Shown piece after piece: positions 21,662-22,022 of a stretch of DNA of 50,279 bases (position 1 is the first letter of the stretch; the number at the start of each line of letters is the position of its first letter). The position numbers and the translations under genes were made by a program. Below the pieces are notes generated by a model, which saw nothing but the letters and a program-made list of their open reading frames with translations, searched no databases and was not told where the DNA came from. Origin of the DNA: a virus; IMG/VR virus record IMGVR_UViG_3300025924_000033. One strand, given 5' to 3'.

Positions 21662-22022
21662 GGGGGTGTAACGGTTTCGACAGCGCAGACAGAGGAACGA
21701 GTGCGAGCCGGGGATGGTTGCAGCCTCGATAAAAAGCAGCCACGCATCAAACGCCAACGACAACGTTCGCGTGCAGTCCAACCTCTCTGCTCCTCTCCAG
21801 GCAGCAGCGTAACCGGACGGGGTAGACCGGAAACCCGACAAAAGAATCCCCGGTAAGTCCCGCAGGAGTCGACGTGCCTGCGGTAACGGTGATGACGTCG
21901 ACGGTCAGACCCGGGCCGTAACAAGGGCCTCATCTGGTGCTGGCTCCTCAACCAGCTACGCTCGTAGTACTCGCTCGGCATGAATGCGTTGGACGCGGGT
22001 TCGACTCCCGCCACCTCCACCA
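21662..22022 (+). ncRNA. ssrA: tmRNA (transfer-messenger RNA, SsrA)
   Basis: 5' GGGGGTGTAACGGTTTCGACAG and 3' GGACGCGGGTTCGACTCCCGCCACCTCCACCA closely match tmRNA ends (E. coli GGGGCUGAUUCUGGAUUCGAC... ...GGACGCGGGUUCAACUCCCGCCAGCUCCACCA); acceptor GGGGGTG/CACCTCC gives G3:U70 alanine identity pair; internal tag frame GCC AAC GAC AAC ... GCA GCA GCG TAA encoding ANDNVRVQSNLSAPLQAAA. Confidence 0.8.

What the first reader, a model, noticed from the sequence alone, without database searches (positions are those of the whole stretch)
21662..22022. Virus-encoded tmRNA with intact tRNA-like domain and a 19-residue tag
A 361-nt element has tmRNA-type 5' and 3' ends, a G3:U70 alanine identity pair, a T-arm GCGGG-TTCGACT-CCCGC and terminal ACCA. 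Its internal frame is GCC AAC GAC AAC GTT CGC GTG CAG TCC AAC CTC TCT GCT CCT CTC CAG GCA GCA GCG TAA (ANDNVRVQSNLSAPLQAAA), ending in the AAA/LAA-type degron. The supplied ORF track places two protein ORFs over it (21550..22107 minus, 21937..22437 plus); those are artefacts. A phage tmRNA, together with Pth2 and a large tRNA set, points to extensive takeover of translation quality control.
Basis: partly seen in the sequence, partly recalled or inferred. Interest (0 to 1): 0.6.

Follow-up and report, generated by a model that had tools for sequence, protein, structure and literature searches.

The report
Phage-encoded tmRNA with long tag
This is a genuine ribosome-rescue RNA (tmRNA) carried by a ~210-kb soil phage and conserved in its relatives; it is a well-supported example of something already known from other large phages, so it is solid but not surprising.

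Summary
ARAGORN and Rfam RF00023 (124.7 bits, cut-off 47, E 2e-48) both call a full-length one-piece tmRNA at exactly 21662..22022 (+), with the stated tag. The genome is a closed ~210-kb phage (rIIA/rIIB and PHROG-specific genes; the window spans both ends of a circular IMG/VR contig), so this is not a host ssrA next to a prophage.

I found six orthologous tmRNAs at the same locus in diverged relatives. They give 15 base pairs with compensatory changes, an invariant G3:U70, a covarying PK1 and PK3, in-frame tag length changes, and conserved tag ends (ANDN...AAA or VAA). The RNA is therefore under selection both as a structure and as a translated tag.

- ORF 21937..22437 is not wholly an artefact. 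It is an over-extended call of a real 122-aa receiver-domain gene (22069..22437).
- The tag ends in QAAA, not LAA.
- No SmpB was found in the window, so "takeover" of quality control is overstated.

Pth2 (46462..46797) and 14 tRNAs are confirmed. Phage tmRNAs are well documented (Bxz1-type mycobacteriophages, phage G, about 2% of phage genomes). This is a new member of a known kind. The host is unresolved.

The parts
21662..22022 (+). tmRNA gene (ssrA), 361 nt, one-piece, with encoded CCA
   Evidence: ARAGORN. Rfam RF00023 at 124.7 bits, E 2e-48, full length. Intact in 10 independent assemblies. Orthologues at the same locus in 6 diverged relatives.
21662..21668 (+). Acceptor stem, 5' strand (tmRNA 1-7). 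Pairs with 22012..22018. G3:U355 is the AlaRS identity pair.
   Evidence: Sequence. G:U invariant in 7 of 7 orthologues. Pairs 5 and 6 of the stem covary: GC/AU/GU and CG/UA.
21679..21708 (+). Helix 2, 5' strand (tmRNA 18-47). Pairs with 21960..21993.
   Evidence: Rfam alignment. Seven pairs with compensatory changes across 7 orthologues.
21709..21741 (+). Pseudoknot PK1 (tmRNA 48-80): stem 1 is 48-52/63-67, stem 2 is 55-60/75-80
   Evidence: Stem 2 has 3 pairs and stem 1 has 1 pair with compensatory changes in the 7-sequence alignment.
21753..21812 (+). Tag reading frame: resume codon GCC, 19 codons (ANDNVRVQSNLSAPLQAAA), stop UAA
   Evidence: ARAGORN. Resume codon aligned to the Rfam consensus. 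Orthologues keep the frame through 14-, 16-, 17- and 19-codon versions, with synonymous changes in the terminal Ala codons.
21787..21807 (+). Helix 5 hairpin inside the end of the tag frame (tmRNA 126-133/138-146)
   Evidence: MFE fold. The population variant U135G lies in its loop. Single-sequence prediction only.
21815..21861 (+). PK2 block (tmRNA 154-200). Two alternative H-type pairings are possible. Sequence is nearly invariant.
   Evidence: Candidate stems. 46 of 47 columns are invariant among the three 19-residue-tag orthologues, against 36-82% in other regions. The block is deleted in the short-tag orthologues. The pairing itself is not resolved.
21860..21902 (+). Pseudoknot PK3 (tmRNA 199-241): stem 1 is 199-205/216-222, stem 2 is 207-214/234-241
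   Evidence: Kept in L287 through A-U to G-C and G-C to U.G changes (stem 1) and G-C to A-U and A-U to C-G changes (stem 2). The population variant C217U turns G204-C217 into G.U.
21903..21957 (+). PK4 region (tmRNA 242-296). Hairpins or a pseudoknot; not resolved.
   Evidence: Candidate stems. Partial match to the Rfam PK4 helix. Least conserved region, 36% invariant columns.
21995..22022 (+). T arm (tmRNA 334-350), acceptor 3' strand (351-357), discriminator A, CCA
   Evidence: Two T-stem pairs covary across orthologues.
21387..21575 (+). Upstream neighbour: 62-aa small hydrophobic protein (context, not part of the RNA)
   Evidence: GC3 coding signature. Called as a gene in 9 other assemblies. 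Orthologue in L276/L277.
22069..22437 (+). Downstream neighbour: 122-aa stand-alone receiver-domain protein. This is the real gene inside the 21937..22437 ORF.
   Evidence: PF00072, E 3e-12. GC by codon position 0.55/0.39/0.72, against 0.75/0.43/0.57 for the 21937..22068 extension. Same start in other assemblies.
46462..46797 (-). Pth2-type peptidyl-tRNA hydrolase (an associated translation-support gene, 24 kb from the tmRNA)
   Evidence: PF01981, E 1.3e-7, 32.3 bits against a cut-off of 23. 46% identical to the Myxococcus phage Mx1 peptidyl-tRNA hydrolase.
45966..50226 (-). Array of 14 tRNA genes interspersed with small ORFs, Pth2 and an HNH endonuclease (associated)
   Evidence: ARAGORN. Twelve of the 14 also pass Rfam RF00005. 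HNH at 48978..49523.

Best explanation
**What it is.** The element is a functional one-piece tmRNA (ssrA) encoded by a lytic-type soil phage of about 210 kb.

**Shown here:**
- It has every sequence feature of a tmRNA.
- It lies inside a closed phage genome.
- It has been kept at the same locus in diverged relatives, with compensatory base-pair changes and a tag frame that is preserved.

**Inferred from the established trans-translation pathway:**
- The RNA is transcribed from the + strand and trimmed by host RNase P and 3' processing enzymes.
- Host AlaRS charges it with alanine through G3:U70 and the A discriminator.
- Host SmpB and EF-Tu deliver it to ribosomes stalled at the 3' end of broken or stop-less mRNAs.
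- The ribosome resumes at GCC, appends A-ANDNVRVQSNLSAPLQAAA, terminates at UAA and is recycled.
- The terminal Ala-Ala makes the product a likely substrate of ClpXP-type proteases.

**Proposed benefit (inference).** In an infected cell, host mRNA is being degraded and nuclease-based defences may cut mRNA or tRNA. Extra tmRNA, together with the phage's Pth2 and tRNA set, would keep ribosomes and tRNAs available for phage protein synthesis.
For: **Identity**
- ARAGORN and Rfam RF00023 at 124.7 bits, E 2e-48, full length.
- G3:U70, T arm, ACCA and PK1, with the resume codon aligned to the consensus.

**Phage location**
- rIIA/rIIB, ThyX and PHROG families.
- The window spans the junction of a circular 210,330-bp IMG/VR contig.
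- The neighbouring protein defines a family of contigs of about 180-215 kb.

**Selection on structure**
- Across 7 orthologues, 94.4% of cells are paired, against about 40% in the slid registers.
- 15 pairs (31 cells) carry compensatory changes, against 0-4 pairs in the slid registers. None of 500 shuffles reached the observed values.
- PK3 is maintained by four double or wobble changes in L287.

**Selection on the tag as a peptide**
- The tag occurs in in-frame versions of 14, 16, 17 and 19 codons.
- The ANDN start is invariant, and the end is AAA in six orthologues and VAA in one.
- Changes in the terminal Ala and Asp codons are synonymous only.

**Retention.** The RNA is intact in 10 assemblies from different samples, with 3 polymorphic sites, one of which is a G-C to G.U change.

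**Degron plausibility.** A terminal Ala-Ala is the critical ClpXP determinant and an upstream Leu is favourable (PMC10862746).

**Precedent.** Phage tmRNAs co-occurring with tRNA arrays and peptidyl-tRNA hydrolases have been reported (PMC4131195, PMC7162821, PMC11242549).
Against: - There is no expression, aminoacylation or tagging data.
- No SmpB gene was found in the window. The remaining roughly 160 kb of the genome could not be inspected, so dependence on host SmpB is assumed.
- The host is unknown, so compatibility with host AlaRS, SmpB and ClpX cannot be checked.
- The tag lacks the antepenultimate Leu of canonical ...LAA tags and is unusually long, so efficient proteolysis is not assured.
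- No recognisable sigma-70 promoter or terminator flanks the gene.
- More distant relatives (neighbour protein 41-50% identical) have no tmRNA at this locus. The gene is therefore dispensable for the wider group.
- PK2 and PK4 pairings are not resolved.
- Single-sequence folding statistics are not significant.
Confidence: 0.8

Rival explanations
1. The RNA is a specialised or re-wired tmRNA. It still enters stalled ribosomes, but its long tag ending in AAA gives tagged proteins a different fate from host-tagged ones. They might escape the host adaptor or ClpXP, be routed to another protease, or be marked rather than destroyed. The near-invariant PK2 block would be a binding site for a dedicated factor.
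For: - The 19-residue tag is conserved in three diverged phages: ANDNVRVQSNLSAPLQAAA, ANDNVRVQSESFAPLQVAA and ANDNVRAKSNFSAPVRAAA.
- Six of the 7 lineage members end in AAA (one ends in VAA), while 82 of 90 viral and 88 of 110 genomic tags starting ANDNV end in LAA.
- The PK2 block is 46/47 invariant while the rest of the RNA is 36-82% invariant.
- Bxz1, Mx1 and Alcaligenes phage tmRNAs also have non-LAA tags.
Against: - The terminal Ala-Ala, the key ClpXP determinant, is kept, and a Leu lies at position -5.
- AAA endings also occur in bacterial tmRNAs (3 of 110).
- The short-tag sister group lacks the PK2 block and still keeps a tmRNA, so the block is not essential to the system.
- No candidate partner protein was identified.
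Confidence: 0.12
2. The RNA acts as a decoy that soaks up host SmpB, or competes with host tmRNA, in order to inhibit host trans-translation rather than perform it.
For: Mycobacteriophage DS6A carries little more than a tmRNA tRNA-like domain, and such molecules inhibit tmRNA, perhaps by titrating SmpB (PMC4131195). No SmpB was found in the window.
Against: The gene keeps a complete mRNA-like domain. The reading frame, stop codon and tag ends are conserved across 7 orthologues, with in-frame indels and synonymous changes. PK1 and PK3 covary. A pure decoy would need none of this.
Confidence: 0.04
3. The gene is a passenger: a recently captured host ssrA gene, or a remnant of an ssrA-targeting integration site, with no role for the phage.
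For: Temperate phages often integrate into ssrA and carry its 3' part. The tag start ANDNV is common in Myxococcota and other bacteria.
Against: - The gene is full length, not a 3' fragment.
- It lies inside a closed 210-kb genome with rIIA/rIIB, and no integrase was seen in the window.
- No sampled bacterial tmRNA is similar beyond the universally conserved ends and the tag start.
- It is syntenic in relatives whose flanking proteins are only 42-85% identical, and it shows compensatory evolution. That indicates long retention under selection.
Confidence: 0.03
4. The region is protein-coding (ORFs 21550..22107 minus and/or 21937..22437 plus) and the tmRNA call is spurious.
For: Open reading frames of 185 and 166 codons exist. 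A gene caller placed a 193-aa ORF over the orthologous tmRNA in L288.
Against: - GC by codon position is flat, against a strong GC3 bias in real genes of this genome.
- There are no Pfam hits.
- Nine independent assemblies leave the interval uncalled.
- The covariance-model E-value is 2e-48.
- Substitutions among the orthologues follow RNA pairing.
Confidence: 0.01

Closest known systems
Mycobacteriophage Bxz1-type (cluster C) tmRNA
   Same: - A complete one-piece tmRNA in a large lytic myovirus-type genome, alongside a large tRNA set and an HNH endonuclease.
- A long, non-canonical tag: ATDTDATVTDAEIEAFFAEEAAALV, 25 residues.
- Also listed as a phage ssrA in PMC4131195.
- The window shares an adjacent kinase plus phrog_2971 gene pair with these phages.
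   Different: - No detectable nucleotide similarity between the two tmRNAs.
- The Bxz1 tmRNA is 435 nt and sits inside the tRNA array. Here it is 361 nt and lies 24 kb from the array.
- The Bxz1 tag ends ALV. This one ends AAA and starts with the canonical ANDN.
- Different host group (Mycobacterium, against unknown here).
Bacterial one-piece tmRNA (Rfam RF00023), e.g. Myxococcota ssrA with tag ANDNVELALAA
   Same: Same architecture, the same identity elements and the same tag start ANDNV. PK1 and the sequence before the resume codon (AUCAAAC|GCC) resemble Myxococcales and Bacteriovoracaceae tmRNAs. PK1 stem 2 shows compensatory changes relative to L160.
   Different: - The tag is 19 residues against 11, and it ends QAAA against LAA.
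- Similarity is confined to the conserved segments: 74-88% over 33-98 nt.
- It is encoded by a virus.
Myxococcus phage Mx1 tmRNA (not annotated in OR576727.2)
   Same: - A phage of 170 kb with about 37 tRNAs, a Pth2 that is 46% identical, an HNH endonuclease in the tRNA array that is 49% identical, and a one-piece tmRNA.
- The Mx1 tmRNA scores 117.7 bits against Rfam, and its tag also ends AAA: VNTNVFGSQMMAAA.
- The 5' 100 nt, including PK1, align well.
   Different: - Only 3 of about 60 window proteins have Mx1 homologues, and the tRNAs are not similar.
- The Mx1 tmRNA lies inside the tRNA array.
- Its resume codon is GUC (Val).
tmRNAs of huge and jumbo phages (Al-Shayeb et al. 2020; Sinorhizobium phage AP-J-162; survey in Buchholz et al. 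2022)
   Same: - The same combination of tmRNA with many tRNAs and peptidyl-tRNA hydrolase in genomes over 200 kb (PMC7162821, PMC11242549).
- 402 of 18,146 phage genomes carry a tmRNA (PMC9004378).
   Different: Some huge phages also encode SmpB, which was not found in this window. This lineage and its tags have not been described, to my knowledge.

Membership tests
tmRNA (Rfam RF00023, one-piece ssrA) | Covariance-model score at or above the curated gathering score, over the full length | tested here: met
   124.7 bits against 47, E 2e-48, model positions 1-374/374.
tmRNA (Rfam RF00023, one-piece ssrA) | tRNA-like domain: 7-bp acceptor stem joining the 5' and 3' ends, T arm, discriminator and CCA | tested here: met
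   Positions 1-7/351-357, T arm 334-350, and A358-C-C-A encoded. Acceptor and T-stem pairs covary among 7 orthologues.
tmRNA (Rfam RF00023, one-piece ssrA) | G3:U70 wobble pair (alanine identity) | tested here: met
   G3:U355 is present and is GU in 7 of 7 orthologues.
tmRNA (Rfam RF00023, one-piece ssrA) | Pseudoknot PK1 immediately upstream of the resume codon | tested here: met
   Stems 48-52/63-67 and 55-60/75-80. Four pairs carry compensatory changes.
tmRNA (Rfam RF00023, one-piece ssrA) | Short internal reading frame without a start codon, resuming at an Ala-type codon, ending in a stop codon, with a tag that ends in hydrophobic or Ala residues | tested here: met
   GCC resume codon, 19 codons, UAA stop...LQAAA. 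The frame is conserved through in-frame indels in orthologues.
tmRNA (Rfam RF00023, one-piece ssrA) | Downstream pseudoknots PK2-PK4 closing the ring back to helix 2 | tested here: inconclusive
   PK3 is supported by covariation. PK2 has two compatible pairings but is invariant, so there is no covariation signal. PK4 is unresolved. A single-sequence pseudoknot shuffle test was not significant (84 of 500).
tmRNA (Rfam RF00023, one-piece ssrA) | Works with the partner protein SmpB | not testable with these tools
   No SmpB (PF01668) hit among the roughly 60 window ORFs scanned. The rest of the 210-kb genome and the host genome are not available.
tmRNA (Rfam RF00023, one-piece ssrA) | Alanylation and trans-translation activity | not testable with these tools
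   This needs biochemistry or in vivo tagging assays.
Phage-encoded tmRNA (as opposed to a host ssrA next to a prophage, or an attP fragment) | Full-length gene internal to a complete viral genome, flanked on both sides by phage genes | tested here: met
   The window spans the junction of a circular 210-kb contig. Phage genes lie on both sides. The same locus is conserved in related phage contigs.
Canonical ssrA degron (ClpXP, C-terminal ...LAA) | Terminal Ala-Ala with a free carboxylate | tested here: met
   The tag ends ...A-A-A. The importance of the terminal Ala-Ala is taken from PMC10862746.
Canonical ssrA degron (ClpXP, C-terminal ...LAA) | Leu at the antepenultimate position | tested here: not met
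   The antepenultimate residue is Ala, and Leu is at -5. All 7 lineage tags lack it. LAA is the ending in 82 of 90 viral and 88 of 110 genomic tags starting ANDNV.

The most novel reading that the evidence does not exclude
This phage lineage may have evolved its own version of trans-translation. It would combine a conserved, unusually long tag (ANDNVR..S..SAP..AAA, 20 residues once appended) that ends in AAA instead of the usual LAA, with a 47-nt PK2 block that is more conserved than the tRNA-like domain. Together these would direct rescued nascent chains to a fate different from host-tagged proteins, or recruit a dedicated factor, rather than simply adding more of the host activity.
Probability: 0.12. 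Interest if true: 0.6.

Novelty: new member of a known kind. Interest (0 to 1): 0.3.

Why it matters
The finding adds a well-validated example, with a small orthologous family, to the known set of phage tmRNAs. Few phage tmRNAs have comparative evidence that both the RNA structure and the tag peptide are under selection. This set of seven syntenic orthologues provides that evidence. It also gives concrete tags for testing whether phage tags are real degrons.

It shows that tmRNAs are still missed in phage annotation. They are unannotated in the records of Myxococcus phage Mx1 and Alcaligenes phage QDWS595, and ORFs are called over them. It does not open a new kind of biology.

Tried and rejected
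1. **L007.** It matched a 20-nt string from the tag, but this was a chance match inside a protein-coding gene.
2. **Alcaligenes phage match.** I first read the 34-nt identity to Alcaligenes phage QDWS595 as an attP remnant. That was wrong: this lytic N4-like phage has its own permuted tmRNA.
3. **Microvirga and Methylobacteriaceae hits.** In the genome scan these looked like anomalous one-piece tmRNAs in Alphaproteobacteria. They are ordinary two-piece genes, in which the 5' acceptor half also precedes the tag.
4. **Distant relatives found through the DnaJ-kinase (L002-L006).** They share only a three-gene module and have no tmRNA within 10 kb.
5. **L034 tmRNA (tag ANDNVIAQAAQAA).** It looked related by its tag but does not align beyond the conserved parts.
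6. **Mx1 as a close relative.** Only 3 proteins are shared and the tRNAs are dissimilar.
7. **Searches for the long tag.** Viral and metagenome scans for tags of the form ANDNV-x-x-Q found the long tag only in this species. A scan of IMG/VR with the neighbouring protein found only the same contig.
8. **Single-sequence tests.** Folding energy and the pseudoknot shuffle test were not discriminating.
9. **Host identification failed.** NCBI records carrying relatives are metagenome assemblies.
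Full report
**1. The observation**

ARAGORN finds one tmRNA in the window, at 21662..22022 on the + strand. Its tag is ANDNVRVQSNLSAPLQAAA* and the coding part lies at positions 92-151 of the gene. Rfam's tmRNA model RF00023 matches the same coordinates over its whole length (1-374/374). The score is 124.7 bits against a gathering score of 47, with E 2e-48.

- GGGGGUG (1-7) pairs with CACCUCC (351-357), and this includes G3:U355, the G3:U70 equivalent.
- The T arm is GCGGG-UUCGACU-CCCGC (334-350).
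- The discriminator is A and the CCA is encoded in the genome.

The Rfam alignment places the resume codon GCC on the consensus resume codon.

Two single-sequence statistics were not informative. The MFE z-score was -1.31. A crude shuffle test for interleaved stems was reached by 84 of 500 shuffles. The support therefore rests on the covariance model and on the comparative data below, not on folding energy.

**2. The overlapping ORFs**

ORF 21550..22107(-) has a flat GC profile across codon positions (0.61/0.58/0.56). Real genes of this genome show roughly 0.6/0.4/0.8. It has no Pfam hit and is an artefact.

ORF 21937..22437(+) is only partly an artefact:
- Its first 44 codons overlap the tmRNA and do not look coding (0.75/0.43/0.57).
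- From the ATG at 22069, which is preceded by GGGGA, it encodes a 122-aa receiver domain. Pfam PF00072 gives E 3e-12, and GC by position is 0.55/0.39/0.72.
- Gene calls in nine other public assemblies of the same phage start at that ATG and leave the tmRNA interval uncalled.

**3. Is it viral?**

The window has no close relative among 50,697 deposited phage genomes, but its gene content is phage-like. It carries rIIA and rIIB, ThyX, a PurA/PurZ-like adenylosuccinate synthetase (phrog_1211), two ATP-dependent ligases, a phosphoesterase, a DnaJ-fused kinase (phrog_3043) and phrog_2971.

The same species is IMGVR_UViG_3300005535_000017, also known as Ga0070683_100000015, at 210,330 bp. The window aligns at 96-99% identity to both ends of that contig, and about 96 nt are present at both ends. 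The genome is therefore closed (circular or circularly permuted) and the tmRNA is internal to it. This excludes a host ssrA beside a prophage.

**4. Structure**

In tmRNA coordinates:

| Element | Positions |
|---|---|
| Acceptor stem | 1-7 / 351-357 |
| Helix 2 | 18-47 / 299-332 |
| PK1 | 48-52/63-67 and 55-60/75-80 |
| Resume codon | 92 |
| Stop codon | 149-151 |
| Helix 5 | about 126-146 |
| PK2 | within 152-193, two alternative H-type pairings |
| PK3 | 199-205/216-222 and 207-214/234-241 |
| PK4 region | 242-296, unresolved |
| T arm | 334-350 |

**5. Relatives and comparative evidence**

The phage is common in public metagenomes: the receiver protein is indexed in 43 blocks. In ten assemblies the tmRNA is intact, with three variable sites:
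- C217U converts G204-C217 into G.U in PK3.
- U135G lies in the helix-5 loop and changes tag residue Leu15 to Arg.
- G325A is a singleton that breaks one helix-2 pair.

The 317-aa protein encoded 1 kb upstream (19677..20630, minus strand) defines a family of 89 proteins, many on contigs of 180-215 kb. I sampled eleven family members beyond this species.
- The six whose neighbour protein is at least 59% identical all carry a tmRNA at the same locus.
- The five at 41-50% identity do not.
- Flanking proteins in the nearest of these relatives are 42-85% identical and colinear.

The tags fall into two types:
- **19 residues:** ANDNVRVQSNLSAPLQAAA (window), ANDNVRVQSESFAPLQVAA and ANDNVRAKSNFSAPVRAAA.
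- **14-17 residues:** ANDNSYAADQRAAA, ANDNMFIADQRAAA, ANDNSYNVIADQRAAA and ANDNSYNDVIADQRAAA.

All length differences are in frame. The ANDN start is invariant, and the end is AAA in six and VAA in one. The differences in the last seven codons of the short type are all synonymous (GAC/GAT, GCA/GCC/GCG). This is what is expected of a tag that is translated and selected at its two ends. One caveat: the end of the frame also forms helix 5, so some of the constraint may act on the RNA.

For the core helices, on the seven-sequence alignment:
- 94.4% of cells form standard pairs, against 39-45% when the 3' partners are slid by 1-3 columns.
- 15 pairs (31 cells) have changes on both sides, against 0-4 pairs in the slid registers.
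- None of 500 shuffles reached the observed pairing, compensatory counts or covariation score.
- G3:U70 is GU in all seven.

With the closest relative alone, 8 pairs are compensatory, against 0 in every slid register.

PK3 is preserved in the most diverged long-tag orthologue (L287) through A-U to G-C and G-C to U.G changes in stem 1, and G-C to A-U and A-U to C-G changes in stem 2.

An unexpected point is that the PK2 block (154-200) is invariant in 46 of 47 columns among the three long-tag orthologues, while other regions are 36-82% invariant. The short-tag group lacks this block. I have no explanation for that degree of conservation.

**6. Origin and host**

The bacterial hits are mainly Myxococcota (ANDNVELALAA), plus two-piece genes of Methylobacteriaceae and some others.

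None is similar to this tmRNA beyond the conserved ends, PK1 and the tag start. Within that set a 19-residue tag is exceptional: 3 of 90 viral and 0 of 110 genomic tags have 18 or more residues. AAA endings are rare, at 2 of 90 and 3 of 110.

The only cultured-phage homologue of the window's Pth2 is in Myxococcus phage Mx1 (46% identity). Mx1 also shares the tRNA-array HNH endonuclease. It has an unannotated tmRNA with the tag VNTNVFGSQMMAAA. However, only 3 proteins are shared and the tRNAs differ.

The phage tRNA set is rich in tRNAs for A/U-ending Leu, Arg and Ile codons. The phage G+C is 59%. By analogy with Mx1 (55.5% against a 68.8% host, PMC10720576), this is compatible with a host of higher G+C. 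That is inference only, and the host remains unresolved.

**7. Mechanism**

*Shown:* all the sequence determinants of a tmRNA are present. Structure and tag are both under selection. The gene lies in a phage genome that also carries Pth2 (46462..46797, PF01981 at 32.3 bits against a cut-off of 23) and at least 14 tRNAs.

*Inferred from the established trans-translation pathway:* host AlaRS charges the RNA. SmpB and EF-Tu deliver it to stalled ribosomes. The ribosome resumes at GCC, appends Ala plus the 19 encoded residues, and terminates at UAA. The terminal Ala-Ala is the critical ClpXP determinant in E. coli, and an upstream Leu is favourable (PMC10862746). So ...LQAAA is plausibly still a degron, perhaps a weaker one.

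No SmpB was found in the window, and the other 160 kb could not be read. "Takeover of translation quality control" is therefore too strong. [quoted passage not shown] fits the evidence better.

**8. Comparison with what is known**

Phage tmRNAs have been known for a long time.
- Three tmRNAs were found in the first 30 mycobacteriophage genomes (PMC1475703).
- Eight Bxz1-type phages, Bacillus phage G and a tRNA-like-domain-only version in DS6A are listed in PMC4131195.
- 402 of 18,146 phage genomes (133 unique tmRNAs) were counted in PMC9004378.
- tmRNAs and SmpB occur in huge phages (PMC7162821).
- A tmRNA with 66 tRNAs and peptidyl-tRNA hydrolases occurs in Sinorhizobium jumbo phage AP-J-162 (PMC11242549).
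- ARAGORN on Bxz1 gives a 435-nt tmRNA with a 25-residue tag that does not end in LAA, so long, odd tags have precedent.

The present RNA meets every testable defining feature of RF00023, except that PK2 and PK4 could not be resolved. It does not meet the "antepenultimate Leu" feature of the canonical degron.

**9. Verdict**

This is a real and very probably functional phage tmRNA, and a new member of a known kind.

The parts that go beyond routine annotation are:
- the syntenic family with covariation;
- the conserved long tag ending in AAA;
- the near-invariant PK2 block.

These leave a modest chance (about 0.12) that the lineage uses a specialised form of tagging.

Noticed in passing
L262 (Myxococcus phage Mx1, OR576727.2) 46646..47023 +: Mx1 carries a full-length one-piece tmRNA (Rfam 117.7 bits; ARAGORN tag VNTNVFGSQMMAAA, resume codon GUC). 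It is not annotated in the record, and a 'Hef-like endonuclease' CDS (46919..47044) is called over its 3' part. ARAGORN finds 37 tRNAs where the genome announcement reports 22 (PMC10720576).
   Followed up: partly
L266 (Alcaligenes phage vB_Af_QDWS595, OK149171.2) locus 2436..2818 +: This lytic N4-like phage has an unannotated permuted (two-piece, beta-proteobacterial type) tmRNA with tag ANDNVYAAAA. It sits next to an unannotated tRNA cluster that includes a tRNA with anticodon UUA, called 'Stop'. Its 3' tRNA-like half is 34/34 identical to the window's tmRNA.
   Followed up: partly
window 21815..21861 (tmRNA 154-200): This 47-nt block after the tag (the PK2 region) is invariant in 46 of 47 columns among three orthologues that are otherwise 71-83% identical. 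It is more conserved than the tRNA-like domain, and it is absent from the short-tag sister group. No explanation found.
   Followed up: partly
window 45966..46192 (-) and 47735..47826 (-): Two adjacent tRNA-like genes called Leu(aag) are 75-77 nt, have no long variable arm and have 9-nt anticodon loops (CAUAAGCAA, CCUAAGCAA). The next is called Tyr with anticodon AUA. The tRNA called Ile(uau) is 92 nt with a long extra arm. Their decoding properties are unclear. ARAGORN also calls a Leu(aag) next to an irregular tRNA in the related contig L289 (locus 437..672).
   Followed up: no
window 26830..30929 (+): A four-gene block is present between the PG-binding gene and the LigD_N-ligase here but absent from the syntenic relative L276/L277. 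The block comprises a small ORF, a DnaJ-fused Ser/Thr kinase, phrog_2971 and a PurA/PurZ-like adenylosuccinate synthetase. The kinase plus phrog_2971 pair is adjacent in the same order in Bxz1-type mycobacteriophages. The three-gene module recurs in otherwise unrelated large viral contigs (L002-L006).
   Followed up: partly
window 22069..22437 (+): A stand-alone CheY-like receiver domain is encoded 47 nt downstream of the tmRNA. A homologous receiver gene lies next to or near the tmRNA in relatives L276/L277, L285 and L286. A phage-encoded receiver with no output domain is unusual, and its partner kinase is unknown.
   Followed up: no
window 42473..43897 (+), 32837..35632 (+), 24866..25666 (+), 17466..17906 (-): Eukaryote-like or unusual cargo: a PARP with WGR, regulatory and catalytic domains; a 931-aa protein with a major-vault-protein shoulder domain; a papain-family protease; and a Cpn10/GroES-like protein. 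The MVP-like, papain and Cpn10 genes are conserved in the related contigs.
   Followed up: no
window 10458..11951 (+), 30926..32359 (-), 36265..36867 (+): Two ATP-dependent ligases, one fused to a LigD-type 3'-phosphoesterase domain, plus a separate phosphoesterase (phrog_547). Together with Pth2 and the tRNA array, they could form a nucleic-acid (possibly RNA) end-healing and sealing set. Not tested.
   Followed up: no
L034 (IMGVR_UViG_3300032893_000001, 185 kb) 10620..10954 (-) and 610..900 (-): Another large viral contig has a Pth2 homologue (49.5% identical) abutting tRNAs, and a tmRNA (Rfam 113.6 bits, tag ANDNVIAQAAQAA). The tmRNA has no encoded CCA, and ARAGORN misses it.
   Followed up: partly
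L288 2470..3051 (+) against tmRNA 2640..3005 (-): In one related assembly the gene caller placed a 193-aa ORF across the orthologous tmRNA. This is the same kind of artefact as in the window's ORF track, and it shows how these RNAs get masked in annotation.
   Followed up: no
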